Shown here: positions 1 through 60,887 of the stretch, in pieces
How the letters are laid out: each line of letters starts with the position of its first letter
Position numbering within the stretch: the stretch's first letter is position 1
Origin: Squalus acanthias
Lineage: Eukaryota
Direction: 5' to 3'
NCBI GenBank assembly: GCA_030390025.1
Contig: JASTWF010000335.1
Location: 124,001 to 188,000 of the forward strand
DNA: 64,000 nt
The notes under the pieces: model-generated
Database searches by the model: none
Seen by the model: the letters and a program-made list of their open reading frames with translations, nothing else
What the model was told of the DNA's origin: nothing
Made by a program: the position numbers and the translations under genes

Positions 1-437
1 AGAGATTGGGTCAATTAGGCTTATATTGGCTAGAGTTCAGAAGAATGAGAGGGGATCACATTGAAATTTATAAAATTCTAACAGGACTAGACAGACTAGA
101 TGCAGGAAGGATGTTCCCGATGGCGGGGTGTCCAGAACCAGAGGTCACAGTCTAAGGATAAGGGGTAAGCCATTTAGGACTGAGATAAGGAGGAATTTCT
201 TCACCCAAAGAGTGGTGAACCTATGGAATTCCTACCACAGAAGGTAGTTGAGGCCAATTCATTAAATAGATTCAAGAAGGAGTTGGATATATTTCTTAAA
301 GCTAAAGGAATCAAGGGATATGCGGAGAAGGCGGGACAGGGTACTGAATTTGGATGATCAGCCATGATCGCGTTAAATGGCGGAACAGGCTCGAAGGGCC
401 GAATGGCCTACTCCTGCTCCTATCTTCTATGTTTCTA
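1..437 (+). mobile_element. 3' end of CR1-clade LINE (HER1-like): ORF2 C-terminus plus 3' UTR, cut by the window edge
   Basis: Encodes ...LEFRRMRGD...FFTQRVVNLWN-type C-terminus. Has the typical 3' UTR (gatcagccatgatc...ggccgaatggcctactcctgctcc) and ends in a ttctatgtttcta tail. Closely similar to 55363-55815 and 57840-58283. Confidence 0.92.
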
Positions 438-33400: not shown

Positions 33401-36400
33401 TCTCTAGATTAGATCAGTATCTCTATGGTGTGTCACTCTCTAGATTAGATCAGTATCTCTCTATGGTGTGTCACTCTCTAGATTAGATCAGTATCTCTCT
33501 ATGGTGTGTCACTCTCTAGATTAGATCAGTATCTCTCTATGGTGTGTCACTCTCTAGATTAGATCAGTATCTCTCTATGGTGTGTCACTCTCTAGATTAG
33601 ATCAGTATCTCTCTATGGTGTGTCACTCTCTAGATTAGATCAGTATCTCTCTATGGTGTGTCACTCTCTAGATTAGATCAGTATCTCTCTATGGTGTGTC
33701 ACTCTCTAGATTAGATCAGTATCTCTCTATGGTGTGTCACTCTCTAGATTAGATCAGTATCTCTCTATGGTGTGTCACTCTCTAGATTAGATCAGTATCT
33801 CTCTATGGTGTGTCACTCTCTAGATTAGATCAGTATCTCTCTATGGTGTGTCACTCTCTAGATTAGATCAGTATCTCTATGGTGTGTCACTCTCTAGATT
33901 AGATCAGTATCTCTCTATGGTGTGTCACTCTCTAGATTAGATCAGTATCTCTCTATGGTGTGTCACTCTCTAGATTAGATCAGTATCTCTCTATGGTGTT
34001 TCACTCTCTAGATTAGATCAGTATCTCTCTATGGTGTTTCACTCTCTAGATTAGATCAGTATCTCTATGGTGTGTCTCTCTCTAGATTAGATCAGTATCT
34101 CTCTATGGTGTTTCACTCTCTAGATTAGATCAGTATCTCTCTATGGTGTGTCACTCTCTAGATTAGATCAGAATCTCTCTATGGTGTGTCACTCTCTAGA
34201 TTAGATCAGAATCTCTCTATGGTGTGTCACTCTCTAGATTAGATCAGTATCTCTCTATGGTGTGTCACTCTCTAGATTAGATCAGTATCTCTCTATGGTG
34301 TGTCACTCTCTAGATTAGATCAGTATCTCTCTATGGTGTGTCACTCTCTAGATTAGATCAGTATCTCTATGGTTTGTCACTCTCTAGATTAGATCAGTAA
34401 CTCTCTATGTTGTGTCACTCTCTAGATTAGATCAGTATCTCTCTATGGTGTGTCACTCTCTAGATTAGATCAGTATCTCTATGGTGTGTCACTCTCTAGA
34501 TTAGATCAGTATCTCTCTATGGTGTGTCACTCTCTAGATTAGATCAGTATCTCTCTATGGTGTGTCACTCTCTAGATTAGATCAGTATCTCTCTATGGTG
34601 TGTCACTCTCTAGATTAGATCAGTATCTCTCTATGGTGTGTCACTCTCTAGATTAGATCAGTATCTCTCTATGGTGTGTCACTCTCTAGATTAGATCAGT
34701 ATCTCTCTCTGGTGTGTCACTCTCTAGATTCGATCAGTATCTCTCTATGGTGTGTCACTCTCTAGATTAATCAGGTATCTCTATGTGTGGTCACTCTCTA
34801 GATTAGATCAGTATCTCTGCTATGGTGTGTCACTCTCTAGATTAGATCAGTATCTCTCTATGGTGTGTCACTCTCTAGATTAGATCAGTATCTCTCTATG
34901 GTGAGTCACTCTCTAGATTAGATCAGTATCTCTCTATGGTGTGTCACTCTCTAGATTAGATCAGTATCTCTCTATGGTGTGTCACTCTCTAGATTAGATC
35001 AGATCTCTCTATGGTGTGTCTCCTCTCTAGATTAGATCAGTATCTCTCTATGGTGTGTCACTCTCTAGATTAGATCAGTATCTCTCTATGGTGTGTCACT
35101 CTCTAGATAGATCATGATCTCTCGAATGGTTGTTTTTGTGTCACTCTCTAGATTAGATCAGTATCTCTCTATGGTGTTCACTCTCTAGATTAGATCAGTA
35201 TCTCTCTATGTGTGTCTCTCTCTAGATTAGATCAGTATCTCTCTATGGTGTGTCACTCTCTAGATTAGATCAGGTACTCTCTATGGTGTGGTCACTCTCT
35301 AGATTAGATCTGTATCTCTCTATGGTGTGTCACTCTCTAGATTAGATCAGTATCTCTCATGGTGTGTCACTCTCTAGATTAGATCAGGTTCTCTCTATGG
35401 GTGTGTCTCTCTCTAGAATAGATCAGTATCTCTCTATGGTGTGTCACTCTCTAGATTAGATCAGTATCTCTCTATGGTGTGTCACTCTCTAGATTAGATC
35501 AGTATCTCTCCATGGTGTGTCACTCTCTAGATTAGAGCAGTATCTCTCTATGGTGTTGTCACTCTCTAGATAGATCAGGTATCTCCTATGGTGTGTCACT
35601 CTCTTAGATTAGATCAGTATCTCTCTATGGTGTGTCACTCTCTAGATTAGATCAGTATCTCTCTATGGTGTGTCACTCTCTAGATTAGATCAGTAGTCTC
35701 TCTATGGTGTGTCACTCTCTAGATTAGATCAGTATCTCTCTATGGTGTGTCACTCTCTAGATTAGATCAGTATCTCTCTATGGTGTTTCACTTTCTAGAT
35801 TAGATCAGTATCTCTCTATGGTGTGTCACTCTCTAGATTAGATCAGATCTCTCTTGTTGTGTCACTCTCTAGATTAGATCAGTATCTCTCTATGGTGTGT
35901 CACTCTCTAGATTAGATCAGTATCTCTCTATGGTGTGTCACTCTCTAGATTAGATCAGTATCTCTCTATGGTGTGTCACTCTCTAGATTAGATCAGTATC
36001 TCTCTATGGTGTGTCACTCTCTAGATTAGATCAGTATCTCTCTATGGTGTGTCACTCTCTAGATTAGATCAGTATCTCTCTATGGTGTGTCACTCTCTAG
36101 ATTAGATCAGTATCTCTCTATGGTGTGTCACTCTCTAGATTAGATCAGTATCTCTCTATGGTGTGTCACTCTCTAGATTAGATCAGTATCTCTCTATGGT
36201 GTGTCACTCTCTAGATTAGATCAGTATCTCTCTATGGGTGTCACTCTCTAGATTAGATCAGTATCTCTCTATGGTGTGTCACTCTCTAGATTAGATCAGT
36301 ATCTCTCTATGGTGTGTCACTCTCTAGATTAGATCAGTATCTCTATGGTGTGTCACTCTCTAGATTAGATCAGTATCTCTCTATGGTGTGTCACTCTCTA

Positions 36401-39400
36401 GATTAGATCAGTATCTCTCTATGGTGTGTCACTCTCTAGATTAGATCAGTATCTCTCTATGGTGTGTCACTCTCTAGATTAGATCAGTATCTCTCTATGG
36501 TGTGTCACTCTCTAGATTAGATCAGTATCTCTCTATGGTGTGTCACTCTCTAGATTAGATCAGTATCTCTCTATGGTGTGTCACTCTCTAGATTAGATCA
36601 GTATCTCTCTATGGTGTGTCACTCTCTAGATTAGATCAGTATCTCTCTATGGTGTGTCACTCTCTAGATTAGATCAGTATCTCTCTATGGTGTGTCACTC
36701 TCTAGATTAGATCAGTATCTCTCTATGGTGTGTCACTCTCTAGATTAGATCAGTATCTCTCTATGGTTGTGTCACTCTCTAGATTAGATCAGTATCTCTC
36801 TATGGTGTGTCACTCTCTAGAATAGATCAGTATCTCTCTATGGTGTGTCACTCTCTAGATTAGATCAGTATCTCTATGGTATGTCACTCTTTAGATTAGA
36901 TCAGTATCTCTCTATGGTGTGTCACTCTCTAGATTAGATCAGTATCTCTCTATGGTTGTCACTCTCTAGATTTGATCAGTACTCTCTATGGTGTGTCACT
37001 CTCTAGATTAGATCAGTATCTCTCTATGGTGTGTCACTCTCTAGATTAGATCAGTATCTCTATGAGGTGTTCACTCTCTAGATTAGATCAGTATCTCTCT
37101 ATGGTGTGTCACTCTCTAGATTAGATCAGTATCTCTCTATGGTGTGTCACTCTCTAGATTAGATCAGTATCTCTCTATGGTGTGTCACCTCCTTGATTAG
37201 ATCAGTATCTCTATGGTGTGTCACTCTCTAGATTAGATCGGTATCTCTCTATGGTGTGTCCTCTCTAGATTAGATCAGTTTCTCTCTATGGTGTGTCACT
37301 CCTAGATTAGATCAGTTCTCTCTTGTTGTGTCACTCTCTAGATTAGTCAGTATCTCTCTATGGTGTGTCACTCTCTAGATTAGATCAGTATCTCTCTATG
37401 ATGTGTCACTCTCTAGATTAGATCAGTATCTCTATGGTGTCCTCCTAGATGATCAGGATCTCTCATGGGTGTGTCTCCTCTAGATTGAACAGTTTCTCTC
37501 TATGGTGTGTCACTCTCTAGATTAGATCAGTATCTCTCTATGGTGTGTCATCTCTATGGTCACACTAGATAGATCAGTATCTCTCTATGGTGTGTCACTC
37601 TCTAGATTAGATCAGTATCTCTCTATGGTGTGTCACTCTCTAGATTAGATCAGTATCTCTCTATGGTGTGTCACTCTCTAGATTAGATCAGTATCTCTCT
37701 ATGTGTTTCACTCTCTAGATTAGATCAGTATCTCTCTATGATGTTTCACTCTCTAGATTAGATCAGTATCTCTCTATGGTGTGTCCTCTCTCTAGATTAG
37801 ATCAGTATCTCTCTATGGTGTGTCACTCTCTAGATTAGATCAGTATCTCTCTATGGTGTGTCACTTCTCTAGATTAGATCAGTATCTCTCTATGGTGTGT
37901 CACTCTCTAGATTAGATCAGTATCTCTCTATGGTGTGTCACTCTCTAGATTAGATCAGTATCTCTATGGTGTGTCACTCTCTAGATTAGATCAGTATCTC
38001 TCTATGGTGTGTCACTCTCTAGATTAGCTCAGTATCTCTCTATGGTGTGTCACTCTCTAGATTAGATCAGTATCTCTATGGTGTGTCACTCTCTAGATTA
38101 GATCAGTATCTCTCTATGGTGTGTCACTCTCTAGATTAGATCAGTATCTCTCTATGGTGTGTCACTCTCTAGATTAGATCAGTATCTCTCTATGGTGTGT
38201 CACTCTCTAGATTAGATCAGTATCTCTCTATGGTGTGTCACTCTCTAGATTAGATCAGTATCTCTCTATGGTGTGTCACTCTCTAGATTAGATCAGTATC
38301 TCTCTATGGTGTGTCACTCTCTAGATTAGATCAGTATCTCTCTATGGTGTGTCACTCTCTAGATTAGATCAGTATCTCTCTATGGTGTTTCACTCTCTAG
38401 ATTAGATCAGTATCTCTCTATGGTGTGTCACTCTCTAGATTAGATCAGTATCTCTCTATGGTGTGTCACTCTCTAGATTAGATCAGTATCTCTCTATGGT
38501 GTGTCACTCTCTAGATTAGATCAGTATCTCTCTATGGTGTGTCACTCTCTAGATTAGATCAGTACTCTCTATGGTGTGTCACTCTCTAGATTAGATCAGT
38601 ATCTCTCTATGGTGTGTCACTCTCTAGATTAGATCAGTATCTCTCTATGGTGTGTCACTCTCTAGATTAGATCAGTATCTCTCTATGGTGTGTCACTCTC
38701 TAGATTAGATCAGTATCTCTCTATGGTGTGTCACTCTCTAGATTAGATCAGTATCTCTCTATGGTGTGTCACTCTCTAGATTAGATCAGTATCTCTCTAT
38801 GGTGTGTCACTCTCTAGATTAGATCAGTATCTCTCTATGGTGTGTCACTCTCTAGATTAGATCAGTATCTCTCTATGGTGTGTCACTCTCTAGATTAGAT
38901 CTAGATTAGATCAGTATCTCTATGGTGTGTCACTCTCTAGATTAGATCAGTATCTCTCTATGTTGTGTCACTCTCTAGATTAGATCAGTATCTCTCTATG
39001 GTGTGTCACCTCTAGATTAGATCAGTATCTCTATGGTGTGTCACTCTCTAGATTAGATCAGTATCTCTCTATGGTGTGTCTCTCTCTAGATTAGATCAGT
39101 ATCTCTCTATGGTGTGTCACTCTCTAGATTAGATCAGTATCTCCTATGGTGTGTCACTCTCTAGATTAGATCAGTATCTCTCTATGGTGTGTCACTCTCT
39201 AGATTAGATCAGTATCTCTCTATGGTGTGTCACTCTCTAGATTAGATCAGTATCTCTCTATGGTGTGTCACTCTCTAGATTAGATCAGTATCCCGCTGGT
39301 GTTTCACTCTCTAGATTAGATCAGTATCTCTCTAGGGTGTGTCACTCTCTAGATTAGATCAGTATCTCTCTATGGTGTGTCACTCTCTAGATTAGATCAG

Positions 39401-42400
39401 TATCTCTCTATGGTGTGTCACTCTCTAGATTAGATCAGTATCTCTATGGTGTGTCACTCTCTAGATTAGATCAGTATCTCTCTTGGTGTGTCACTCTCTA
39501 GATTAGATCAGTATCTCTCTATGGTGTGTCACTCTCTAGATTAGATCAGTATCTCTATGGTGTGTCACTCTCTAGATTAGATCAGTATCTCTCTATGGTG
39601 TGTCACTCTCTAGATTAGATCAGTATCTCTCTATGGTGTGTCACTCTCTAGATTAGATCAGTATCTCTCTATGGTGTGTCACTCTCTAGATTAGATCAGT
39701 ATCTCTATGGTTTGTCACTCTCTAGATTAGATCAGTAACTCTCTATGGTGTGTCACTCTCTAGATTAGATCAGTATCTCTCTATGGTGTGTCACTCTCTA
39801 GATTAGATCAGTATCTCTATGGTGTGTCACTCTCTAGATTAGATCAGTATCTCTCTATGGTGTGTCACTCTCTAGATTAGATCAGTATCTCTCTATGGTG
39901 TGTCACTCTCTAGATTAGATCAGTATCTCTCTATGGTGTGTCACTCTCTAGATTAGATCAGTATCTCTCTATGGTGTTTCACTCTCTAGATTAGATCAGT
40001 ATCTCTATGGTGTGTCACTCTCTAGATTAGATCAGTATCTCTCTATGGGCTGTGTTCACTCTCTAGATTAGATCAGTATCTCTATGGTGTGTGTCTCTCT
40101 CTAGATAGATCAGTATCTCTCTATGGTTGTGTCACTCTCTAGATTAGATCAGTATCTCTCTATGGTGTGTCACTCTCTCGATTAGATCAGTAGCTCCTAA
40201 TGTTGTTTCACTCTCTAGATTAGATCAGTATCTCTCTATGGTTGTTCACTCTCTAGATTAGATCAGTAATCTCTATGGTTTGTCACTCTCTAGATTAGAT
40301 CTAGTATCTCTCTATGGTCGGGTTCCCACTCTCTATGGTGTTTCACTCTCTAGATTAGATCAGTATCTCTCTATGATGTGTCACTCTCTAGATTAGATCA
40401 GTCTCCTCTCTATGGTGTGTCTCTCTCTAGATTAGACAGTTCTCTCTATGGTGTGTACTCTCTAGAATAGATCCAGTTTCTCTCTACTGGTGTGTCTCTC
40501 TTCTAGATTAGATCAGTATCTCTCTATGGTGTGTCTCTCTCTAGATTAGATCAGTATCTCTATGGTGTCTCACTCTCTATATTAGATCAGTATCTCTATA
40601 TGGTGTGTCCACTCTCTAGATTAGATCAGTATCTCTATGGTGTGTCACTCTCTAGATTAGATCAGTATCTCTCTATGGTGTGTCACTCTCTAGATTAGAC
40701 TCAGTATCTCTATGGTGTGTCACTCTCCTGGATTAGATCAGTATTCTCTATGGTGGTCACTCTCTTGATTAGATCAGTATCTCTCTATGGTGTGTCTCTC
40801 TAGATTAGATCAGTATCTCTCTATGGTGTGTCTCTCTAGATTAGATCAGTATCTCTCTATGGTGTGTCACTCTCTAGATTAGATCAGTATCTCTCTATGG
40901 TGTGTCTTCTAGATTAGATCAGTTTCTCTCTATGGTGTGTCACTCTCTAGATTAGATCAGTATCTCTCTATGGTGTGTCACTCTCTAGATTAGATCAGTA
41001 CTCTCTATGGTGTGTCTCTTAGATGATCAGCTTTCTCTCTATGGTGTGTCACTCTCTAGATTAGATCAGTATCTCTCTATGGTGTGTCACTCTCTAGATT
41101 AGATCAGTATCTCTCTATGGTGTGTCACTCTCTAGATTAGATCAGTATCTCTCTATGTGTGTCACTCTCTAGATTAGATCAGTATCTCTCTATGGTGTTT
41201 CACTCTCTAGATTAGATCAGATCTCTATGGTGTGTCTCTCTCTAGATTAGATCAGTATCTCTCTATGGTGTGTCACTTCTAGATTAGATTCAGTATCTCT
41301 CTATGGTGTGTCACTCTCTAGATTAGATCAGTATCTCTCTATGTGTGTCACTCTCTAGATTAGATCAGTGTCTCTCTATGGTGTGTCATCTCTAGATAGA
41401 TCCGTATCTCTATGGTGTGTCACTCTCTAGATTAGATGAGTAACTCTCTATGGTGTGTCACTCTCTAGATTAGATCAGTATCTCTCTATGGTGTGTCACT
41501 CTCTAGATTAGATCAGTATCTCTATGGTGTGTCACTCTCTAGATTAGATGAGTAACTCTCTATGGTGTGTCACTCTCTAGATTAGATCAGTATCTCTCTA
41601 TGGTGTGTATCTCTAGATTAGATCAGTGTCTCTCTATGGTGTGTCAATCTCTAGATTAGATCAGTATCTCTCTATGGTGTTTCACTCTCTAGATTAGATC
41701 GGTATCTCTATGGTGTGTCACTCTCTTGAATAGATTAGTATCTCTCTATGGTGTGGCTCTCTCTTGATTAGATCAGTATGTCTATGGTGTGTCACTTTCT
41801 AGATTAGATCAGTATCTCTCTATGTGAGTCACTCTCTAGTTAGATCAATGTCCTCTCTAGTAGAAGTATGTGGTCACTCTAGATTAGATCAGTATCTCTC
41901 TATGGTGTTTCACTCTCTAGATTAGATCAGTATCTCTCTATGGTGTGTCACTCTCTAGATTAGATCAGTATCTCTCTATGGTGTGTCACTCTCTAGATTA
42001 GATCAGTATCTCTCTATGGTGTGTCACTCTCTAGATTAGATCAGTATCTCTCTATGGTGTGTCACTCTCTAGATTAGATCAGAATCTCTCTATGGTGTGT
42101 CACTCTCTAGATTAGATCAGTATCTCTCTATGGTGTGTCACTCTCTAGATTAGATCAGTATCTCTCTATGGTGTGTCACTCTCTAGATTAGATCAGTATC
42201 TCTCTATGGTTTGTCACTCTCTAGATTAGATCAGTATCTCTCTATGTGTGTCACTCTCTAGATTAGATCAGTATCTCTATGGTGTGTCACTCTCTAGATT
42301 AGATCAGTATCTCTCTATGGATGTTTCACTCTCTAGATTAGATCAGTATCTCTCTATCGTGTGTCACTCTCTAGATTAGATCAGTATCTCTCTATGGTGT

Positions 42401-45400
42401 TTCACTCTCTAGATTAGATCAGTATCCTCTATGGTGTGTCACTCTCTAGATTAGATCAGTATCTCTCTATGGTGTGTCACTCTCTAGATTAGATCAGTAT
42501 CTCTCATGGTGTGTCACTCTCTAGATTAGATCAGTATCTCTCTATGGTGTGTCACTCTCTAGTACTCTATGGTGTGTCACTCTCTAGATTAGATCAGAAT
42601 CTCTCTATGGTGTGTCACTCTCTAGATTAGATCAGTATCTCTCTATGGTGTGTCACTCTCTAGATTAGATCAGTATCTCTCTATGGATGTGTCACTCTCT
42701 AGATTAGATCAGTATCTCTCTATGGTGTGTCACTCTCTAGATTAGATCAGTATCTCTCTATGGTGTGTCACTCTCTAGATTAGATCAGTATCTCTCTATG
42801 GTGTGTCACTCTCTAGATTAGATCAGTATCTCTATGGTGTGTCTCTCTAGATTAGATCAGTTCTCTCTATGGTGTGTCACTCTCTAGATTAGATCAGTAT
42901 CTCTCTATGGTGTGTCACTCTCTAGATTAGATCAGTATCTCTCTATGTGTGTCTCTCTCTAGATTAGATCAGTATCTCTCTATGGTGTGTCACTCTCTAG
43001 ATTAGATCAGAATCTCTCTATGGTGTGTCACTCTCTAGATTAGATCAGTATCTCTCTATGGTGTGTCACTCTCTAGATTAGATCAGTATCTCTCTATGGT
43101 GTGTCACTCTCTAGATTAGATCAGTATCTCTCTATGGTGTGTCACTCTCTAGATTAGATCAGTATCTCTCTATGGTGTGTCACTCTCTAGATTAGATCAG
43201 AATCTCTCTATGGTGTGTCACTCTCTAGATTAGATCAGTATCTCTTGTGTGTCACTCTCTAATTAGATCAGTATCTCTTTATGGTGTCACTCTCTAGATT
43301 AGATCAGTATCTCTATGGTGTGTCACTCTCTAGATTAGATGAGTAACTCTCTATGGTGTGTCACTCTCTAGATTAGATCAGTATCTCTCTATGGTGTGTC
43401 ACTCTCTAGATTAGATCAGTGTCTCTCTATGGTGTGTCACTCTCTAGATTAGATCAATGTCTCTCTATGGTGTGTCACTCTCTAGATTAGATCAGTATCT
43501 CTCTATGGTGTGTCACTCTCTAGATTAGATCTGTATCTCTCTATGGTGTGTCACTCTTTAGATTAGATCAGTAACTCTCTATGGTGTGTCACTCTCTAGA
43601 TTAGATCTGTATCTCTCTATGGTGTGTCACTCTTTAGATTAGATCAGTAACTCTCTATGGTGTGTCACTCTCTAGATTAGATCAGAATCTCTCTATGGTG
43701 TGTCACTCTCTAGATTAGATCAGAATCTCTCTATGGTGTGTCACTCTCTAGATTAGATCAGAATCTCTCTATGGTGTGTCACTCTCTAGATTAGATCAGT
43801 ATCTCTCTATGGTGTGTCACTCTCTAGATTAGATCAGTATCTCTCTATGGTGTGTCACTCTCTAGATTAGATCAGTCTCTCTATGGTGTGTCACTCTCTA
43901 GATTAGATCAGTAACTCTCTATGGTGTGTCACTCTCTAGATTAGATCAGTATCTCTCTATGGTGTGTCACTCTCTAGATTAGATCAGTATCTCTCTATGG
44001 TGTGTCACTCTCTAGATTAGATCAGTATCTCTCTATGGTGTGTCACTCTCTAGATTAGATCAGAATCTCTCTATGGTGTGTCACTCTCTAGATTAGATCA
44101 GTATCTCTCTATGGTGTGTCACTCTCTAGATTAGATCAGATCTCTCTATGGTGTGTCACTCTCTAGATTAGATCAGTATCTCTCTATGGTGTGTCACTCT
44201 CTAGATTAGATCAGTATCTCTCTATGGTGTGTCACTCTCTAGATTAGATCAGTATCTCTCTATGGTGTGTCACTCTCTAGATTAGATCAGTATCCTCTCT
44301 ATGGTGTGTCACTCTCTAGATTAGATCAGTATCTCTCTATGGTGTGTCACTCTCTAGATTAGATCAGTATCTCTCTATGGTGTGTCACTCTCTAGATTAG
44401 ATCAGTATCTCTCTATGGTGTGTCACTCTCTAGATTAGATCAGACTCTATGGTGTGTCACTCTCTAGATTAGATCAGTATCTCTATGGTGTCACTCTCTA
44501 GATTAGATCAGTATCTCTCTATGGTGTGTCACTCTCTAGATTAGATCAGTATCTCTCTATGGTGTGTCACTCTCTAGATTAGATCAGTATCTCTCATGGT
44601 GTGTCACTCTCTAGATTAGATCAGTATCTCTCTATGGTGTGTCACTCTCTAGATTAGATCAGTATCTCTCTATGGTGTGTCACTCTCTAGATTAGATCAG
44701 TATCTCTCTATGGGTGTCACTCTCTAGATTAGATCAGTATCTCTCTATGGTGTGTCACTCTCTAGATTAGATCAGAATCTCTCTATGGTGTGTCACTCTC
44801 TAGATTAGATCAGTATCTCTCTATGGTGTGTCACTCTCTAGATTAGATCAGTATCTCTCTATGGTGTGTCACCTCTGATTAGATCAGTATCTCTCCATGG
44901 TGTGTCTCACTAGACAGATCAGTATCTCTCTATGGTGTGTCACTCTCTAGATTAGATCAGTATCTCTCTATGGTGTGTCACTCTCTAGATTAGATCAGTA
45001 TCTCTCTATGGTGTGTCACTCTTTAGATTAGATCAGTATCTCTCTATGGTGTTTCACTCTCTAGATTAGATCAGTATCTCTCTATGGTGTGTCACTCTCT
45101 AGATTAGATCAGTATCTCTCTATGGTGTGTCACTCTCTAGATTAGATCAGTACCTCTGTGGTGTGTCAGTCTCTCGATTAGATCAGTATCTCTATGGTGT
45201 TTCACTCTCTAGATTAGATCAGTATCTCTCTGTGGTGTGTCTTTCTCTAGATTAGATCAGTATTTCTCTATGGTGTGTCTTTCTCTAGATTAGATCAGTA
45301 TCTCTATGGTGTGTCTTTCTGTAGATTAGATCAGTATCTCTCTATGGTGTGTCTCTCTCTAGATTAGATCAGTATCTCTCTATGGTGTGTCTTTCTCTAG

Positions 45401-45431
45401 ATTAGATCAGTATCTCTCTATGGTGTGTCAC
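438..45431. repeat. ~45 kb tandem satellite, 38-bp unit TAGATTAGATCAGTATCTCTCTATGGTGTGTCACTCTC (~1,180 copies), with a frequent 36-bp variant lacking one CT
   Basis: Unit read directly and repeated without interruption from ~438 to ~45431. One XbaI site (TCTAGA) and one GATC per unit, no CpG in the consensus. Edge units are more diverged. Confidence 0.99.
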
Positions 45432-45458: not shown

Positions 45459-45515
45459 TACATGATATCAGGATCCGTGACCATTCATCTAATATATTCC
45501 AGAGCTACCCTTCAT
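45459..45515 (+). CDS. MS4A/CD20-like gene A, 57-bp exon (end of TM2 plus intracellular loop): YMISGSVTIHLIYSRATLH
   Basis: Acceptor tctcattttgcAG and donor GTAAGT, phase 0/0. The peptide matches the MS4A [YF]IISGS motif, and 57 bp matches the recalled size of this exon (CD20 YIISGSLLAATEKNSRKCL). Confidence 0.8.
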
Positions 45516-45637
45516 GTAAGTATTTAACGTCGTGAGCATGGTCTCAGCTAAATGGATTGTAGAGGCTGAAGGGAAACATGGCATTGTACCTTGCTACCAA
45601 AACAGGGGTCGATGAATACCTCCAGCTTCCAGGAGTC

Positions 45638-47421
45638 AGCCATGGCTCAGTCAGAAACACACTCGCGTCTGAGTCAGAAGGTTGTGGGTTCAGGTTCCAC
45701 TCCAGAGACTTGAGCACAAAATATAGGCTGACACTCCCAGTACAGTACTGAGGAGACGCTGCACTGTCAGAGGGGCAGTACTGCGGGAGTGCCGCACTGT
45801 CGGAGGGTCAGTACTGAGGGAGCGCTGCACTGTCGGAGGGGCAGTACTGAGGGAGTGCCGCACTGTCGGAGGGGCAGTACTGAGGGAGCACTGCACTGTT
45901 GGAGGGGCAGTACTGAGGGAGAGCTGCACTGTCAGAGGGGCAGTACTGAGGGAGCGCTGTACTGTCGGAGGGGCAGTACTGAGGGAGTGCGGCACTGTCG
46001 GAGGGGCAGTACTGAGGGAGCACTGCACTGTTGGAGGGGCAGTACTGAGGGAGTGCAGCACTGTCGGAGGGTCTGTACTGAGGGGGCGCTGTACTGTCGG
46101 ATGCATGGGGTAGTCATGAGGGAGCGCTGCAACTGTCGAGGGCAGTACTGAGGGAGTGCCGCACTGTCGAGGGGGAGTACTGATGGAGCTCTGCACTGTG
46201 GAGGGGGCAGTACTGAGGGAGAGCTGCTCTCTGTCAGAGGGGCAGTACTGAGGGAGCGCTGTACTGTCGGAGGGGCAGTACTGAGGGAGTGCGGCACTGT
46301 CGGAGGGGCAGTACTGAGGGAGCACTGCACTGTTGGAGGGCAGTACTGGAGGGAGTGCAGCACTGTCGGAGGGTCTGTACTGAGGGGGCAGCTGTAACTG
46401 GTTTCGGATGGGCAGTACTGAGGAGCGCTGCACTGTCGACGGGCAGTACTGAGGGAGTGCTGCACTGTCGGAGGGGCAGTACTGAGGGAGTGCTGCACTG
46501 TCGGAGGGGCAGTGCTGAGGGAGTGCCGCACTGTCGGAGGGGCAGTACTGAGGGAGTGCTGCACTGTCGGAGGGCCAGTACTGAGTGAGCGCTGCACTGT
46601 CGGAGGGGCAGTACTGAGGGAGTGCTGCACTGTCGGAGGGGGCAGTACTGAGGGAGCACTGCACTGTTGGAGGGGCAGTACTGAGAGACCACTGCACTGT
46701 CAGAGGGGCAGTACTGAGGGAGCGCTGCACTGTCGGAGGGGCAGTACTGAGGGAGGGCTGCACTGTCGGAGGGGCAGTACTGAGGGAGCGCTGCAGTGTC
46801 GGAGGTGCAGTACTGAGGGAGGGCTGCACTGTCAGAGGGGCAGTACTGAGGGAGCGCTGCACTGTCGGAGGGACAGTACTGAGGGAGCGCCGCACTGTCG
46901 GAGGGACAGTACTGAGGGAGCGCCGCACTGTCGGAGGGACAATACTGAGGGAGCGCCGCACTGTCGGAGGGGCAGTACTGAGGGAGCTCTGCACTGTCGG
47001 AGGGGCAGTACTGAGGGAGCGCCGCACTGTCGGAGGGACAGTACTGAGGGAGCGCCGCACAGTCGGAGGGGCAGTACTGAGGGAGCGCCGCACTGTCGGA
47101 GGTGCCGTCTTTTGGATGAGTCTTTAAACCTCTCAGGTGGACGTAAAAGATCCCACGGCCACTATTTCGAAGAATAGCAGGGGGAGTGCTCCTCGGTGTC
47201 CTGGCCAATATTTATCCCTGAACCAACATCGCTTATAAAAAACCTTATTTGGTCATCTTCACAGTGCTGTTTGTGGGATCTTGCTGTCTGTAAATTTTCT
47301 GCTGCCTTTCCTACATTACAACAGTGAGCACATTTCAAAAGTACTTGTTTGGCTGTAAAGCGCTTTGGGACATCCTGAGGTTGTGAAAGGCGCTGTGCAG
47401 GTGCAAGTCTGTCTTTCTTTA
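45638..47421 (+). mobile_element. DeuSINE (SacSINE1-like, tRNA-derived head, L2-type tail) with an internally expanded minisatellite
   Basis: Head tggctcagtc...ggttcaggttcc (A/B-box-like). Deu-domain ggaggtgccgtcttttggatgag...aaagatccc...ggtgtcctggccaa. L2-type tail gtaaagcgctttggga...gaaaggcgct ending in (cttt)n. Confidence 0.85.
45743..47102 (+). repeat. 33-bp minisatellite CAGTACTGAGGGAGCGCTGCACTGTCGGAGGGG, ~41 copies, inside the SINE
   Basis: Unit read directly. It accounts for the 11-aa periodic ORFs (PQYCPSDSAAL and others) in the ORF track. Confidence 0.97.
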
Positions 47422-47878
47422 ATGTGGAGATGCCGGTGTTGGACTGGGGTGGACAAATGTGAGAAGTCGCACAACACCAGGTTATAGTCCAACAGCTTTA
47501 TTTGAAATCACAAGCTTTCGGAGCGCTGCTCCTTCGCTGGTTGAAGTGAAGAGATGCATATAGGCACAGCATATATAGTCAGAGAACACTGCCAGGTGAC
47601 TACAGTTAATCTTTCCAACTGCCCTTTATCACACCTCGGCAGAGAGATAATCACGGCAATCAAAGGTGTGGATGGTGTCCAAACAGGTCAGTCAGGAAAA
47701 CATTACATCAAAGACAAGAAAGATTAACTGTAGTCACCTGGCAGTGTTCTCTGACTATATATGCTGTGCCTATATGCATCTCGTCACTTCACCAGACGAA
47801 GGAGCAGCGCTCCGAAAGCTTGTGATTTCAAATAAAGCTGTTGGACTATAACCTGGTGTTGAGCGACTTCTCACATTT
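47422..47878. mobile_element. Non-autonomous Penelope-like (pLTR-derived) inverted-repeat element with degenerate hammerhead ribozyme cores
   Basis: ~160-bp inverted arms (47455-47615 and 47718-47878) around a ~100-bp spacer, with an unpaired left extension. Contains motif CAGACGA-A-GGAGC-AGC-GCTCC-GAAA. Flanked by the direct repeat ctttcttta (47413-47421 and 47879-47887). Confidence 0.75.
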
Positions 47879-48227
47879 CTTTCTTTAGGAAGCCTTCCAC
47901 CCAGGAGGTAAGGGAGACTTTTCAAACTTCAGTGTGTTATAAGCAATCCCCTCTCTCTCGCACTGAAAGTGAATTACTGTAAAGTTCTCTCCGCAGCTTG
48001 GGTTGATTCCCTTGCCTAAGAGTAGATAAGATGTTATCAGTGAAGAGAGGATATCTTTTCGTTCTGCCGCCTTCCCTGTTGTGCAGGAATGGGCCCAGTC
48101 CATCAGGAGTGAGAAAAGGCACAGGAGATGCTGTCCCATTAAAGGTCCTGATTGGGGGTTAGTTGCCCACCTTTAAACAGGATGTGTTGATATTAACTTT
48201 GCTGTGGATGCCACACACTCCTTGCCT

Positions 48228-48386
48228 CTGGAGTTTCGAAGAATGAGAGGTGATCTCATTGAAACATATAACATTCTTAAGGGTAGATGCTGGGGTGATG
48301 TTTCCCTTGGCTGGAGAGTCTCGAACTCGGGGTCACTGTCTCTGATCATTCAGGGTTCGGCCATTTAGGACTGATATGAGGAGACA
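48228..48386 (+). mobile_element. Short degraded CR1 LINE ORF2 3' fragment
   Basis: tggagtttcgaagaatgagaggtgatctcattgaaac...ccatttaggactga, the LEFRRMRGDLIETY motif. Confidence 0.85.
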
Positions 48387-48477
48387 TTTAAGAACAAAAA
48401 TCGACTTCCTCCTCCAGGCTGGATTGTAAAACATTGGCGTCCTGTTTGCTGAGTAATCCTTCTTGTGCTGTTTTCAG

Positions 48478-48591
48478 AGACAGATCATACTCAGCCTGCA
48501 CGTCCTCAGTGCGTTTTTTGCAGCAGTGGGCTGTGTGTTGTTTAACCTCTCGCTCTTCGTCTTGCCAACAACTCCGTTCAACTTTTTTATG
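48478..48591 (+). CDS. MS4A-like gene A, TM3 exon: RQIILSLHVLSAFFAAVGCVLFNLSLFVLPTTPFNFFM
   Basis: Acceptor ttcttgtgctgttttcAG and donor ATG|GTAAGT. 114 bp, phase 0/0, open. Hydrophobic helix resembling the MS4A TM3 pattern L-x-[IV]-x-S-A-x-x-A-x-x-G. Confidence 0.8.
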
Positions 48592-48692
48592 GTAAGTTCT
48601 TCCTGTACTGTTGCAGGTTTGACAGACTAACAGTGGCAAACTTCTCAACGAATATATTCCATTGAGAAATAAAAAATCCACGGGGAAAGTGA

Positions 48693-50990
48693 TCCATCCG
48701 TGTCTAACTAAAGAAATTAAGGATATTAGATTAAAAAGAGAGGCTTATAATGTTGGGAAGAAGTAAGCCTGAGGATTGGGAGAGCTTTAGAAACCGGCAA
48801 AGGATGACCAAAAAATTGATAAAGAGGGAGAAAATACAATGAGAGTAAATTTGCAAGAAATATAAAAACAGATTGTAAGAGCTTCTACAAGTATGTAAAA
48901 AGGAAGAGTAGCAGCAAAAGTAAGCGTTGGTCCCTTAGAGGCTGAGACAGGTGAAATTATAATGGGGAATAAGGAAATGGTAGAGACTTTAAACAAATAT
49001 TTTGTATCTGTCTTCACAGAAGAAGACACAAAAAGCATACCAAAAATAACGGGGAACTAAGGGGCTATTAAGAGTGAGGAACTTGCGAAATTAATGGGAC
49101 TAAAAGCCGACAAATCCCCTGGACCTGATGGCCTACATCCTAGGGTTCTAAAAGAGGTGGCTGCAGAGATAGTGGATGCATTGGTTGTGATCTTCCAAAA
49201 TTCCCTAGATTCTGGAATGGTCCCAGCGGATTGGAAGGTACCAAATGTAACCCCACTATTCAAAAAAGGAGGGAGAGAGAAAACGGGGAATTACAGGCCA
49301 GTTCGCCTGACATCAGTCATCAGGGAAATGCTGGAATCCATTATTAAGGAAGTGGTAACAGGGCACTTAGAAAATCATACTATGATTAGGCAGAGTCAAC
49401 ATGGTTTTATGAAAGGGAAATGGTGTTTGACAAATTTATTGTTATGCAAGATTAGGGCTCATGGGATTGGGGGTAATATATTAGCATGGATAGAGGATTA
49501 GTTAAAGGACAGAAAACAGAGAGTAGGGATAAACAGGTCATTTTCAGGTTGGCAGGCTGTAATTAGTGGGGTGCCACAAGGATCAGTGTTGGGGCCTCTG
49601 CTATTTACAATCTATATTAATGACCGAGATGAAGGGGCCGAGTGTAATGTATCCAAGTTCGCAGACGAAGATAGGTGGGAAAGTAAGCTATGAGGAGAAC
49701 ACAAAGAGTCTGCAAAGGGATATAGACAGGTTAAGTGAGTGGGCAATAAGGTGGCAGATGGAGTATAATAGAAACATAGAATCTAGGAGCAGGAGTAGGC
49801 CATTCGGCCCGTCGAGCCTGCTCCACCATTCAATACGATCATGGCTGATCATTCAAATCCAGTATCCTGTCCCTGCTTTAATCCCCACAGTACACATATC
49901 CCACCCTACCCCCTGTAACCCCACGTATTTAATTCCCCCTAACATATCCCATCCTATCCCCATAACCCCACATATTTAATCCCCCCCTAACACTAAGGGT
50001 CAATTTATCATAGCCAAATCAACCTAACCCGTACATTTTTGGACTGTGGGAGGAAACCGGAGCACCCGGAGGAAACCCACGCAGACACTGGGAGAATGTG
50101 CAAACTCCACACAGACAGTCACCCGAGGTCAGATTCGAACCCGGGTCCCTGGCGCTGTGAGGCACCAGTGCTAACCACTATGCCACTGTGGGAAATGTGA
50201 AGTTATTCACTTTGGTAGAGAATAGGAAAACAGAATATTTTTTACATGTTGAGAAACTATTCAATGTTGGTGTTCAGAGAGATTTGGGTGTCCCAGTACA
50301 AGAAACACAGAGTTAGCATGCAGGTACAGCAAGCAATTAGGAAGGCAAATGGCATGTTGGCCTTTATTGCAAGGGGGTTGGAGTATAAGAGTAAGGAAGT
50401 TTTGCTACAATTGTACAGGGCCTTGGTGAGACTACACCTGGAGTATTGTGCACAGTTTTGGTCTCCTTATCTAAGGAAGGATATACTTGCCTTAGAGGTG
50501 GTGCAACGAAGGTTCACCAGATTGATTCCTGGGATGAGAGGTTTGTCCTATGAGGAGAGTTTGAGTAGATTGGGTCTATACTCTCTGGAGTTTAGAAGAA
50601 TGAGAGGTGATCTCATTGAAACATACAAGATTCTGAGGGGGATTGACAGGGTAGATGCTGAGAGGATGTTTCCCCTAGTGGGGGTACCTAGAACTAGGGG
50701 GCATAGTCTCAGATAAGGGGCTCGGCCATTTAGGACTGAGATGAGGAGGAATTTCTTCACTCAGAGGGTGGTGAATCTTTGGAATTCTCTGCCCCAGAGG
50801 GCTGTGGAGGCTCAGTCGTTGAGTATATCCAAGGCTGAGATCGATAGATTTTTGGACTCTAAGAGAATCAAGGGATATGGAGATCGGGCGGGAAAGTGGA
50901 GTTGAGGTAGAAGATCAGCCATGATCTTATTGAATGATGGAGCAGGCTCGAGGGGCCGAATGGCCGACTCCTGCTGTTAATTCTTATGTA
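48693..50990 (+). mobile_element. 5'-truncated, internally deleted CR1 LINE (ORF2 RT region plus 3' UTR), interrupted by a SINE at 49769-50190
   Basis: Motifs KSPGPDGLHPRVLKE, NYRPV, QHGF, GVPQGSVLGP, KFAD (frameshifted) and LEYCAQFWSP. Multiple stops and frameshifts. 3' UTR ends ttcttatg. Confidence 0.95.
49769..50190 (-). mobile_element. HE1-like V-SINE with an internal ~45-bp duplication and a CR1-LINE-type 3' tail
   Basis: Minus strand shows tRNA head tggcatagtggttagcac...ggttcgaatc and V-domain gtgtggagtttgcacattctccc...gggtttcctccgggtgctccgg. Tail matches the LINE 3' UTR at 58175-58283. The insertion splits LINE codons QMEYN|VG. Confidence 0.88.
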
Positions 50991-51219
50991 CTAACGGTGA
51001 AGATCACTTGCTGTATTGGTGTGTGTGTTTGGAAGAAAAGCTTTAATTTGGTAAGACCATCGATCCAGTGAAGATTAAAATACTGAAAATGCTGCAAAGT
51101 TTGGTGGGTCTGCCCTGGATGATGTGGACTGAACCTTTCTGGCCAGGTCTGTTAAAGAACGCTGAGCTCCAGTCTACCTGGAGTAGAAGTTGAACCATGT
51201 CATCTCTTGTCCCACGCAG

Positions 51220-51333
51220 GCATCACCACTGATCACGTCAGCATTCCTGATGATCTTCTCTGCGTTGGAGTTCGTCATCGCACTTTTAATTTGTTATCTT
51301 TACATGAAGCTCTTACGATCAAAGAAATGGTAA
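51220..51333 (+). CDS. MS4A-like gene A, TM4 exon: ASPLITSAFLMIFSALEFVIALLICYLYMKLLRSKKW*
   Basis: Acceptor tctcttgtcccacgcAG, phase 0, in frame with the previous exon. Contains the MS4A TM4 LEF.IA motif followed by a basic stop-transfer segment. Ends at in-frame TAA (51331-51333), which overlaps a donor TG|GTAAGA at 51329/51330. Confidence 0.8.
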   Translation, partial: ASPLITSAFLMIFSALEFVIALLICYLYMKLLRSKKW

Positions 51334-53795: not shown

Positions 53796-54352
53796 AAACC
53801 ATTTGTATTTTCAATGCTTCCACAGAAGGTGCTTTCCAAGCAAAGGCCGCGCTTCGAAGATCAGACCCGGAGAAGCCGTTTCTCGCACGGTTAATGGAGC
53901 ACGGCACACGCAACAGAACCTGACCCAAAAAGAAAGCGCCACCACTTTGATGATTTGAGCTGGAGCGCGACAGCAGCGCCTGTCTCTCTGCAAGATCCTC
54001 CTTACTGGCAGTTTGCCTGCAGCAGCAGACTGAGACCCCCTTTGGCCAGAGTTCCGTGTTTGAGCCGAGCCTGTTGAATGGGTGAGAGGCGCAGGCTCGG
54101 GGCTGGCAGCACTCGGTCAGGGAGCTCCTCCTGCACTCCCAGAAGGCAAGGACGCTCGCTCTTTCCCAACTGGACGGGGCAGAGAAAATAACAACTCCCA
54201 CTCGCACAAACGCAGACTGTTTCTGGAGAATCGGTAATGACAGCGCTTTCCTTTTTGTGAACAACTTTGTTTTAATTGAATTAAACAAAAGAACAAACAT
54301 TGTTTCGGTTACAAACACCAGGAGTGCAGCCTCCTCCTGATCAGAAGAAATT

Positions 54353-54384
54353 TCAGCAAATCCAGCGTAACATCAGTTTTATAG
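54353..54384 (-). CDS. Candidate terminal exon of gene B, option 2 (phase 1: AIKLMLRWIC*)
   Basis: Strong minus-strand acceptor (gtgtgtcctg, T-run, aaAG), with an ATTAAA polyA signal ~80 nt past the stop (~54271-54276). No homology support. Confidence 0.3.
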
Positions 54385-54544
54385 CTTTAAAAAAAAACAG
54401 GACACACCAACCGATTCTCATCGATACAAAGCAAGGGGATAGTCCCTTCTGCACCAGCACACCCGGTCTCCACTTGTTCCCTTCAACCCTCCTGACTCCT
54501 CAGTAACCTTCGCTATCCCTCCGCGGGGCCTCTAATACCCAATA

Positions 54545-55050
54545 AATACCCCTTCATCTGGAGTTCTGGACACCACACTGTAGGAAGGATGTCCAGGCCT
54601 TGGAGAGGGTGCAGAGGAGATTGACCAGAATGGTACCAGGGGATGAGGGACTTCAGTTATGTGGAGAGACTGGAGAAGCTGGGATTGTTCTCCTTAGAGC
54701 AGAGAAGGTTGAGGGGAGATTTAATAACGGTGTTCAAAATCATGAGGGGTTCTAATAGATTAGATAGGGGGAAACCAGAGGACACAGATTTAAGACAATT
54801 GGCAAAAGAACATGGGGGAGATGAGGAGAAATGTTTTTACGGGGCGAGTTGTTGTGATCTGGAACGCGCTGCCTGAAAGGGTGGTGGAAGCAGATTCAAC
54901 AGTAATTTTCAAAAGGGAAATTGGATAAATACTTGAAGGGGAAAAATTAACAGCGCTATGGGGAAAGGGACTAATTGGGGCGCTCTTTCAAAGAGCCGGC
55001 ACAGGCACGATGGGCCGAATGGGCTGATTCTGTGCTGTATCGTTCTACGA
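54545..55050 (+). mobile_element. Degraded CR1 LINE 3' fragment
   Basis: MRDFSYVERLEKLGLFSLEQRRLRGDL followed by a CR1 3' UTR. Confidence 0.85.
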
Positions 55051-58416: not shown

Positions 58417-58528
58417 CGTGAAACTCGTGCATGAGGAGCATACAGTGAAGGAACAAAACCAAAGCGGCGATGACAAACTCCAGTCCGCACAGCAGCATGA
58501 GGAAGAAGAGCAAGAGCATGGGCGCCAT
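58417..58528 (-). CDS. MS4A-like gene B (convergent paralog), TM4 exon: MAPMLLLFFLMLLCGLEFVIAALVLFLHCMLLMHEFH
   Basis: Minus-strand acceptor cttttgttttgcAG and donor CG|GTAAGA. 112 bp, phase 0/1. Aligns without gaps to the gene A TM4 exon (P, FLM, LEFVIA, L, LL shared). Confidence 0.75.
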
Positions 58529-58904
58529 CTGCAAAACAAAAGGTGGGACAGCGCCCCCCCCGCGGGCCCCTCGTCAGTCTGGGACCTCTGCTCGTCCCTT
58601 GTCTGGCCAGTGATCCCACCCCAGCCACATCTCGTTCAACAGCTGGCGGGGGCCAGTTGGTTATATTTGCCACCTTCTTCTCCGCCTCTCGCTGGGAGGA
58701 CGGATTCCAGCCTCGAACGTGGAGGGGGGACTGAGCCAGTCTCCGACCTCGCACGCTAGCACATTGCACGTTTCAGACAGCGATCGGAAGCAGGAATCCT
58801 GGCTGCTTTTACACCTTCCGAATGGAATGGATGCTGAGTGCCGATGCAGCTACTCGACTGACCCCCCTGCCCCCAAACCCAGCCCCATGGCTCCAGGCCT
58901 CTCC

Positions 58905-59031
58905 CTGTGGATGCATTGGTTGTCATCTTCCAAAATTGAATAGATTATGGAACCGTTCCTGCAGATTGGAGGATGGCAAATATAACCCCACTATTTAAAA
59001 ATGGAGGGAGAGAGAAAACGGGGAACTACAG
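58905..59031 (+). mobile_element. CR1 ORF2 internal fragment
   Basis: VDALVVIFQN..VPADWRMANITPLFKNGGREKTGNY, homologous to 49170-49295. Confidence 0.85.
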
Positions 59032-59343
59032 CCTCTCTCCCCCAGTCTCTCTCTCTCTCAACCCAGCACTGTCTCTCTCTCCCCCAGCACTGTCTCTCTC
59101 TCTCCCCCAGCACTGTCTGTCTCTCTCTCTCCCCCAGCACTGTCTCTCTCTCTCCCCCAGCACTGTCTCTCTCTCTCTCTCCCCAGCACTGTCTCTCTCT
59201 CTCCCCCAGCACTGTCTCTCTCTCTCTCCCCCAGCACTGTCTCTCTCTCTCTCTCCCCCAGCTCTCTCTCTCTCTCTCTCCCCCAGCACTGTCTCTCTCT
59301 CTCTCTCCCCCAGCACTGTCTCTCTCTCTCCCCCAGCACTGTC
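59032..59343. repeat. Minisatellite CCCCCAGCACTGT(CT)n, variable unit length, running into the gap
   Basis: Read directly. Confidence 0.95.
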
Positions 59344-59543
59344 NNNNNNNNNNNNNNNNNNNNNNNNNNNNNNNNNNNNNNNNNNNNNNNNNNNNNNNNN
59401 NNNNNNNNNNNNNNNNNNNNNNNNNNNNNNNNNNNNNNNNNNNNNNNNNNNNNNNNNNNNNNNNNNNNNNNNNNNNNNNNNNNNNNNNNNNNNNNNNNNN
59501 NNNNNNNNNNNNNNNNNNNNNNNNNNNNNNNNNNNNNNNNNNN
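59344..59543. other. Assembly gap (200 N)
   Basis: Run of N with a round placeholder length. Confidence 1.
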
Positions 59544-59766
59544 GGTGGTAGAAGTTTGGAACTCTCTTCCACAAACAGCAATTGATGCTGGGTCAGTTGT
59601 TAATTTTAAGTCTGAGATTGGTAGATCTTTGTTAAGCCAAAGGTATTAAGGGATATGGGGGCAATGGCGGGTATAAGGAGTTAGGTCACAGATCATCCAT
59701 GATCTCATTGAATAGCGGAACAGGCTCGAGGGGCTAAATGGCCTCCTCCTGTTCCGATGTTCCTAT
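59544..59766 (+). mobile_element. CR1 LINE 3' end
   Basis: tggaactctcttccacaaa...aagggatatgggg...catgatctcattgaa...aggctcgagggg tail. Confidence 0.85.
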
Positions 59767-60129
59767 TGTCAGTACTTATGCTTATGTAAACATGTCACAC
59801 TGCAATTACACTCTCCCACCAGTGGTGGCGCTGTAGCACGTCTCTCTCCCTTGGAGTAACCCCTGTGCTCAAACTAACTCTCAATTTGCTGTCGGTTATG
59901 GCAATTTATCATGGGGCTACTCATAGAATCTGACAGGAACAGAGGAGGCCATTCGATCCATCTTGCCTGTGCCTTTCGAAGAGCTATCCGGTTAGCCCGC
60001 TCCCTACTCCAAGCACCAGATCCCCCTGGTTCCTAACTGGAGAGAAGGTGGCAGGATGGGGGGGGGGGGGGAGGGGCAGGGAGGGAGGGAGGGGGCGTGG
60101 GGTCATCCTATACGTTACGTGATATAAAG

Positions 60130-60865: not shown

Positions 60866-60887
60866 ATCACTTGAAAAACAACAAAAT

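What the first reader, a model, noticed from the sequence alone, without database searches (positions are those of the whole stretch)
45459..51333. Hidden divergent MS4A/CD20-like tetraspan gene reconstructed from three small exons
Seen: three exons (57, 114 and 110-114 bp) with canonical AG/GT sites join in phase 0 into one open, hydrophobic 94-aa peptide. None is shown in this frame in the ORF track. Established: MS4A-family (CD20-like) genes have a 57-bp YIISGS exon, then a TM3 exon, then a TM4 exon with LEF.IA. Inference: this is the 3' half of an intact, divergent chondrichthyan MS4A-like gene whose TM1/TM2 exons lie upstream of the window. MS4As act in immune signalling and as non-GPCR chemoreceptors, so a shark-lineage member is of interest.
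Basis: partly seen in the sequence, partly recalled or inferred. Interest (0 to 1): 0.72.

Follow-up and report, generated by a model that had tools for sequence, protein, structure and literature searches.

The report
Tail-less shark CD20-family gene half
These three small exons are the back half of a real shark-or-ray gene of the CD20/MS4A four-pass membrane family, already predicted in several other sharks and rays; its protein is predicted to end right after the last membrane helix, so it likely works as a helper subunit without a signalling tail, an ordinary family member sitting behind an unusually large (45-kb) block of repeats.

Summary
Observation confirmed. The three exons (57, 114, 110 nt; AG/GT; phase 0) give an open 94-aa peptide that maps without gaps onto residues 110-202 of Stegostoma XP_048381379 ('MS4A18-like') and onto orthologues in Rhincodon, Chiloscyllium, Narcine and Mobula (49-61 identities in 92-93). 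It keeps 33 of 35 invariant residues. The orthologues hit Pfam CD20 only, and a model of one is closest to FcεRIβ and CD20. So this is a divergent MS4A-like gene, but one already predicted in RefSeq.

New details: (1) a likely 3'-UTR exon at 53,826 completes a split stop codon (TG|A), so the protein is predicted tail-less, like its orthologues; (2) the TM3-TM4 loop is short, conserved and has no cysteines; (3) about 1,180 copies of a 38-bp repeat fill the presumed upstream intron (over 45 kb); (4) a second, convergent MS4A-like TM4 exon lies at 58,417-58,528.

The 5' exons and expression are unverified: no genome is held and no junction was tested with reads. Best mechanism (inferred): an intramembrane accessory subunit. 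The scan has already noted several similar shark MS4A genes elsewhere in this genome, including a tail-less one 83 kb downstream. Low interest.

The parts
1..438 (+). 3' end of a CR1-type LINE fragment, on whose tail the array starts
   Evidence: Same tail word as the LINE ends at 55785 and 58252; the CR1 label is recalled, not from a call
437..45431 (.). 38-bp minisatellite, about 1,180 copies, filling the presumed intron between the TM1/TM2 exon and exon A; ends 27 nt before exon A
   Evidence: 636 of 983 single units identical; longest run of rare 9-mers is 29, so no exon is hidden inside
45459..45515 (+). Exon A, 57 nt, phase 0/0: end of TM2 and the inner loop
   Evidence: Residues 110-128 of P0002; 9-13 of 19 identical in 7 of 7 orthologue sequences compared
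48478..48591 (+). Exon B, 114 nt, phase 0/0: TM3 and the short outer loop
   Evidence: Residues 129-166; 19-26 of 38 identical; open, with unchanged splice sites, in genomic contigs of a relative
51220..51329 (+). Exon C, 110 nt, phase 0/2: TM4; ends in TG (TAA at 51331-51333 if the intron is read through)
   Evidence: Residues 167-202; 19-25 of 35-37 identical in the 6 orthologue sequences that have it; found P0002 at E 1.3e-5 among 1.84 billion proteins
53826..54560 (+). Predicted terminal exon D (3' UTR); its first base completes the TGA stop; AATAAA at 54541; 3' end approximate
   Evidence: Most T-rich of the 10 best-ranked acceptors listed. The Stegostoma X1 alternative tail aligns at 53882-54042 with frameshifts, 38.3 bits; reached by 0 of 100 region-wide and 0 of 500 local shuffles. 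The shorter Rhincodon tail lands at the same place but is not significant region-wide (17 and 39 of 100).
58417..58528 (-). Neighbour, not this gene: TM4-type exon of a second, convergent MS4A-like gene (112 nt, phase 0/1)
   Evidence: Aligns from its first residue to P0002 residue 167; score 70 against exon C, best of 2,000 shuffles 52; hhalign probability 93.4%

Best explanation
The three exons encode the TM2-end, TM3 and TM4 part of a conserved shark-and-ray MS4A/CD20-like four-pass protein that is predicted to end within a few residues of TM4 and likely acts as an intramembrane accessory subunit, helping a partner membrane protein assemble, traffic or cluster, without signalling through a tail of its own. 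Shown: exons, frame, orthology, family resemblance, short conserved cysteine-free TM3-TM4 loop, and tail-less ends in orthologue models (about 0.95). Inferred: the 5' exons lie more than 45 kb upstream and the gene is expressed (about 0.8); splicing to exon D forms the stop (about 0.8; read-through gives the same tail-less end plus one residue); the accessory role, on the model of FcεRIβ minus its ITAM, with any regulation through the conserved N-terminal Ser-rich juxtamembrane segment seen in orthologues (about 0.45).
For: Gapless mapping of all three exons to orthologues, with 33 of 35 invariant columns kept. RefSeq isoforms break at the same boundaries: P0012/P0013 skip exon B; P0003, P0008, P0010, P0014 and P0005 diverge after exon B. 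All 6 full-length orthologue models end at or within one residue of the same position. PF04103 is the only Pfam family in 8 of 8 orthologue proteins scanned (E 2.6e-8 to 6.6e-5). The AlphaFold model of P0002 has four long helices. Its top structural match is FcεRIβ 8k7t_B (Z 17.1, rmsd 3.0, 143 aligned), and the top 5 Foldseek rows are FcεRIβ and CD20. No Tyr-based signalling motif falls in a cytoplasmic tail because there is no tail. A partner/chaperone role is the common documented MS4A mode (PMC11663944 section 3.2).
Against: No transcript, partner, localisation or expression evidence for this gene. The TM1/TM2 exon was not seen. Only 3 of 8 orthologue proteins pass Pfam's gathering score, and the window's single exons hit nothing. 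Structural matches are not unique: a designed four-helix maquette, sarcospan and uroplakin score Z 14.7-16.1, and no Foldseek row reaches E<=0.001. The model is of the Stegostoma orthologue (mean pLDDT 64.9), not the window's protein. Constraint against the close relative is weak (2 of 114 exon differences versus 8 of 138 in unique flanks, p=0.12).
Confidence: 0.5

Rival explanations
1. Same gene, but the protein acts as a homo-oligomeric ion or Ca2+ entry component, as proposed for CD20, MS4A12 and TMEM176.
For: Such roles are reported for family members (PMC11663944 section 3.1). Polar residues are conserved in or beside the helices: an invariant His after TM2, an invariant Asn at the end of TM3, and His in place of the usual TM3 Asn in 4 of 6 orthologues and in the window.
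Against: No pore evidence here; conserved polar residues fit helix packing or partner binding equally well.
Confidence: 0.2
2. A non-GPCR chemoreceptor like mouse olfactory MS4As.
For: MS4As act as odorant receptors in mice (PMC11026480 passages). The gene lies in a cluster of divergent paralogues (earlier notes, unchecked).
Against: Shown only in rodents (PMC7776563 passage). The outer loop is very short and nearly invariant across sharks and rays, unlike the fast-changing loops recalled for mouse olfactory MS4As. No olfactory expression data.
Confidence: 0.1
3. In this species the gene is a recent pseudogene or an orphan 3' half, cut off from or mis-spliced across the 45-kb array; or the array is inflated by assembly.
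For: The 5' exons were not seen. The array holds about 3 AG per unit and ends 27 nt before the acceptor. Its scattered indel variants (84 unit types seen once) look like long-read noise.
Against: Frame and splice sites are intact, 33 of 35 invariant residues are kept, and the end branch is not long (0.15). The acceptor's own pyrimidine tract is preserved.
Confidence: 0.12
4. The gene belongs to the TMEM176-like or another CD20-like branch rather than to MS4A proper.
For: Low Pfam scores. The nearest Atlas cluster is the fish gene si:ch211-269k10.4 (0.95, 215 of 256 features, CD20 on 50% of 78 members). Sarcospan-like chains score close behind in the fold search.
Against: The TM1 motif in orthologues (LGAIEI) and the SGS of TM2 match the MS4A motifs better than the TMEM176 rows of Zuccolo Fig. 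S1 do (by eye). The next Atlas clusters are MS4A12-like and MS4A4D-like.
Confidence: 0.08

Closest known systems
RefSeq models XP_048381379 (Stegostoma tigrinum) and XP_048476816 (Rhincodon typus), both 'MS4A18-like X2'; XP_043539087 and XP_072420645 (Chiloscyllium); XP_069763864 (Narcine); XP_072106752 and XP_062895908 (Mobula)
   Same: Orthologues: same three blocks, same boundaries, same tail-less end; 49-61 identities in 92-93 residues
   Different: The window's species is none of these; Y156 is V and A168 is S here; the upstream array is seen only here (orthologue introns were not examined)
FcεRIβ / MS4A2 (PDB 8k7t_B, 8y81_B)
   Same: Best structural match and best, though weak, PDB sequence match (E 0.049); accessory four-pass subunit
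   Different: Has a C-terminal ITAM tail; this lineage has no tail; about 16% identity
CD20 / MS4A1 (PDB 6y90, 6y92, 6vja)
   Same: Fold and Pfam family; a 57-nt exon after TM2 (human exon layout recalled, not from a call)
   Different: CD20 has a long disulfide-bonded outer loop and a long cytoplasmic tail (recalled); both are absent here
Spiny dogfish MS4Ax1-x3 (Zuccolo et al. 2010, PMC2826416)
   Same: Shark MS4A-family genes, so the family is known in cartilaginous fish
   Different: The MS4Ax1 row of Fig. S1 (identified by row order) has the canonical TM2-end and TM3 Asn motifs and is a different paralogue; x2 and x3 are not in that alignment and could not be compared

Membership tests
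MS4A / CD20-like (PF04103) | Pfam CD20 profile match | tested here: met
   Only family in 8 of 8 orthologue proteins (E<=6.6e-5); 3 of 8 above the 27.9-bit cut-off. The window's single exons give no hit; the spliced peptide was not scanned against Pfam.
MS4A / CD20-like (PF04103) | Four membrane helices with the MS4A fold | tested here: met
   On the orthologue P0002: four long helices over residues 59-201; best match FcεRIβ, Z 17.1. The window itself shows the TM2 end, TM3 and TM4 only.
MS4A | TM2 motif FIISGSLS | tested here: met
   Exon A begins YMISGSVT: 4 identical, 4 conservative (motif)
MS4A | TM3 motif SX3AX2G | tested here: met
   Present in exon B
MS4A | TM3 motif SLX2N (common, not universal) | tested here: not met
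   The Asn position holds His in the window and in 4 of 6 orthologues, Gln in the two Mobula sequences. Several bona fide rows of Fig. S1 also lack it.
MS4A | TM1 motif LGAXQI and GYPFWG before TM2 | tested here: inconclusive
   These exons are outside the window; orthologues have LGAIEI and GxPWxxG
MS4A | Two cysteines in the second outer loop (most members; not MS4A8B or MS4A12) | tested here: not met
   No Cys between residues 148 and 187 in the window or in 6 of 6 orthologues; the feature has known exceptions
MS4A | Cytoplasmic N- and C-termini; surface expression | not testable with these tools
   Topology inferred from homology; the C-terminus is only a few basic residues
MS4A | Clustered genes | tested here: met
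   A second MS4A-like TM4 exon 7 kb downstream; two more genes noted 38 and 83 kb beyond the window (unchecked notes)
Mammalian MS4A18 (orthology) | Groups with MS4A18 in a family tree | not tested
   No mammalian sequences were fetched. Zuccolo et al. found orthologues of human MS4A genes only in mammals, so the RefSeq label is probably a best-hit name.
TMEM176 / TMEM176-like | Groups with TMEM176 and lies at its locus | not tested
   Only a by-eye motif comparison and an Atlas lead
FcεRIβ-type signalling subunit | C-terminal ITAM | tested here: not met
   No tail, and no YxxL/I/V/M/F motif outside TM4 or the outer loops in 6 of 6 orthologues

The most novel reading that the evidence does not exclude
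An ancient, unstudied tail-less MS4A subfamily, conserved across sharks and rays and perhaps matched by a bony-fish gene, whose topology is switched by splicing: skipping the TM3 or TM4 exon, or shifting three bases at a tandem acceptor, toggles between four-pass tail-less, three-pass and tailed forms. In this species a 45-kb repeat array with about 3,500 AG decoys, ending 27 nt from an acceptor, would act as a length-variable dial on that splicing.
Probability: 0.08. Interest if true: 0.55.

Novelty: new member of a known kind. Interest (0 to 1): 0.2.

Why it matters
Modestly. It completes the 3' structure of a gene in a shark MS4A cluster and defines a conserved elasmobranch lineage stripped to the membrane core (no tail, minimal outer loop). 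That makes it a natural test of what the MS4A core does without a signalling tail. If the gene is expressed across the 45-kb array, it is also an extreme example of splicing through a near-homogeneous repeat intron. The family is already known in sharks and the orthologues are already predicted, so it changes no current view.

Tried and rejected
Own genome: none is held, so the 5' exons could not be sought.

Pfam on single exons: 0 hits in 2 of 2 and in 2 of 2 window exons; too short. Word-indexed search with exon C plus flank: 0 of 14 candidates. Atlas on exon C alone: only unnamed short clusters, low recognition. Profile search with A2: the same 5 clusters among 7,998 scored, no further relatives.

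Sequencing runs: no RNA holder listed among 7 rows. The two guessed-RNA runs laid (X5, X6) covered only the repeat part of the stretch, and no joints were listed; this is no evidence on expression. Neither junction was tested with reads.

First, crude test of the exon D homology: the best hit was at the predicted place but not above shuffles (26 and 53 of 100). The log-odds version with the full 69-aa Stegostoma tail was significant; the 38-aa Rhincodon tail was not region-wide. The model was changed after the first result, so the test is partly post hoc.

Homodimer prediction: no answer, score 0.00, alignment not used.

TM1/TM2 exon hidden in the array or elsewhere in the window: rejected. 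TM3 or 57-nt exon of the minus-strand paralogue within 58,529-64,000: not found; a 200-N gap lies there.

Literature: no paper on this subfamily listed (0 hits) or 60 (0 hits); none for the 57-nt exon layout (0 hits); none on such arrays in sharks among 8 listed; two searches gave nothing used. Motif search of Zuccolo's supplements: 0 hits, but the alignment file was cut on reading.
Full report
Observation. A (57 nt) and B (114 nt) are phase 0 at both ends. C is 110 nt to a strong donor, or 114 nt if read to TAA. Together they give 94 residues with no stop. Single exons are too short for Pfam (0 hits). A phmmer search of exon C against 1.84 billion proteins returned one hit, P0002 (E 1.3e-5, 66% identity), which is Stegostoma tigrinum XP_048381379, 'MS4A18-like isoform X2'.

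Orthologues. P0002 retrieved 5 clusters among 41 candidates, covering Stegostoma, Rhincodon, two Chiloscyllium species, Narcine and two Mobula species. Each exon, aligned separately, lands without gaps at consecutive positions 110-128, 129-166 and 167-202 in all 6 full-length models; the seventh sequence compared, P0005, lacks exon C. Alternative RefSeq isoforms break at exactly these boundaries: P0012 and P0013 lack block B, and five models diverge after B. This independently supports the exon layout. The window keeps 33 of 35 invariant columns and is 49-61 of 92-93 identical to the six. In a 7-row tree it falls between the carpet sharks and the rays with a normal branch; the root is a midpoint only, so I name no species. 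An unbiased enumeration of 5,895 candidate exon-frames found only these three loci and one minus-strand exon at E<1e-3. Genomic contigs of a relative (runs X1 and X3, one study) span exon B with two differences, one synonymous and one Phe to Leu, and none listed at the splice sites. The contrast with the flanks is weak: p=0.12 against unique flanks, p=0.04 against all non-exon bases.

Family. PF04103 is the only Pfam family in 8 of 8 orthologue proteins, 3 of them above the curated cut-off. An AlphaFold model of P0002 (6-sequence alignment, mean pLDDT 64.9, residues 1-56 unreliable) has four long helices. Foldseek ranks FcεRIβ and CD20 first, though none at E<=0.001. The full structural scan ranks FcεRIβ first (Z 17.1, rmsd 3.0, 143 aligned), with a dystrophin-complex tetraspan chain, a designed bundle and uroplakin close behind. 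The Atlas gives CD20-family clusters, the best being the fish gene si:ch211-269k10.4. Of the motifs listed in PMC11663944, the TM2 SGS motif and SX3AX2G are met; the TM3 Asn and the loop cysteines are not. I file it as a divergent MS4A-like gene. Orthology to mammalian MS4A18 is untested and unlikely.

The 3' end. All six full-length orthologue models stop at or within one residue of the same position after TM4. Mobula hypostoma ends with one extra Trp where M. birostris stops. That is what a TG|GTAA junction would give if read through in one model and spliced to an A in the other (inference). In the window, a T-rich acceptor at 53,826 supplies that A, giving TGA, and AATAAA follows at 54,541. 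The Stegostoma isoform that skips exon C has a 69-aa tail that aligns, with frameshifts, to 53,882-54,042 at 38.3 bits, beyond all shuffles (0 of 100 region-wide, 0 of 500 local). The shorter Rhincodon tail lands at the same spot but is reached by 17-39 of 100 region-wide shuffles, and a first cruder test was not significant for either tail. So exon D is likely the homologous, non-coding last exon. Spliced or read through, the protein is tail-less. The acceptor is a tandem CAG/AAG; the distal site would add a 43-residue tail, but that frame is not conserved in Stegostoma.

The 5' side. No TM1/TM2 exon is in the window. Positions 437-45,431 are about 1,180 copies of a 38-bp unit that begins on a LINE tail and ends 27 nt before exon A; 636 of 983 single units are identical and nothing unique is hidden inside. 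If the gene is intact, this intron exceeds 45 kb. No genome is held, so this is inferred, and the array's length could be inflated by assembly. Earlier notes describe similar giant arrays in shark DNA (unchecked).

Mechanism. Shown: a conserved four-pass core, a short and nearly invariant TM3-TM4 loop with an invariant Asn-Leu-Ser site, no loop cysteines, no tail, and in orthologues a conserved Ser-rich segment before TM1. Inferred: with no tail to carry an ITAM or ITIM and little outer surface, the protein most plausibly works through its helices as an accessory subunit of another membrane protein, the mode documented for MS4A1, MS4A2, MS4A4A and MS4A6D. I put this at about 0.45, and an earlier scan note on a neighbouring gene offered the same reading. 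Rivals are an ion-entry role (0.2), a pseudogene or orphan half (0.12), a chemoreceptor (0.1) and a TMEM176-like branch (0.08). No expression or partner data were obtained.

Neighbourhood. A second TM4-type exon lies on the minus strand at 58,417-58,528, with the same phase-0 start and the LEFVIA motif; its other exons are not in the window. Earlier notes place two further MS4A-like genes 38 and 83 kb beyond the window and many more elsewhere in this genome (not checked here).

Novelty. MS4A genes are known from dogfish, where expression was not restricted to blood cells (PMC2826416), and this gene's orthologues are RefSeq predictions. I found no paper on this subfamily; subscription journals are largely not covered. 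Papers seen: PMC2826416, main text parts 1-3 of 5, Table S2 whole, Fig. S1 parts 1 and 4 of 9 (file cut on reading); PMC11663944, sections 1 and 3 plus passages; PMC7776563 and PMC11026480, passages only; the others as search listings. The human 57-nt exon layout, the CR1 label and the fast-evolving loops of mouse olfactory MS4As are recalled, not from calls. Verdict: real, ordinary, a new member of a known kind; interest 0.2.

Noticed in passing
window 58417-58528, minus strand: TM4-type exon of a second MS4A-like gene, convergent with the studied one and 41% identical to the orthologue profile; its remaining exons are not in the window (beyond 64,000 or in the gap).
   Followed up: partly
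window 437-45431: 45-kb array of a 38-bp unit starting on a LINE 3' tail and ending 27 nt before an acceptor. Each unit has 3 AG and a donor-like word; no higher-order period was found; the unit core is absent elsewhere in the window.
   Followed up: partly
window 53823-53828: Tandem CAG/AAG acceptor: the proximal site completes the stop, the distal site would give a 43-residue tail.
   Followed up: partly
window 45743-47102 and 61548-63217: Two arrays (41 and 51 copies) of what looks like the same 33-bp minisatellite family, in opposite orientation.
   Followed up: no
window 59344-59543: 200-N assembly gap flanked by a 23-27-bp CT-rich repeat, inside the presumed intron of the minus-strand paralogue.
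   Followed up: no
orthologue proteins P0003, P0005, P0008, P0010, P0012-P0014: RefSeq isoforms lacking the TM3 or the TM4 exon recur in five shark and ray species; whether they make proteins is unknown.
   Followed up: partly
P0002 residues 43-74 (outside the window): A Ser-rich segment and a helix before TM1 are conserved between sharks and rays while the rest of the N-terminus is not; a possible phosphorylation or partner site.
   Followed up: no
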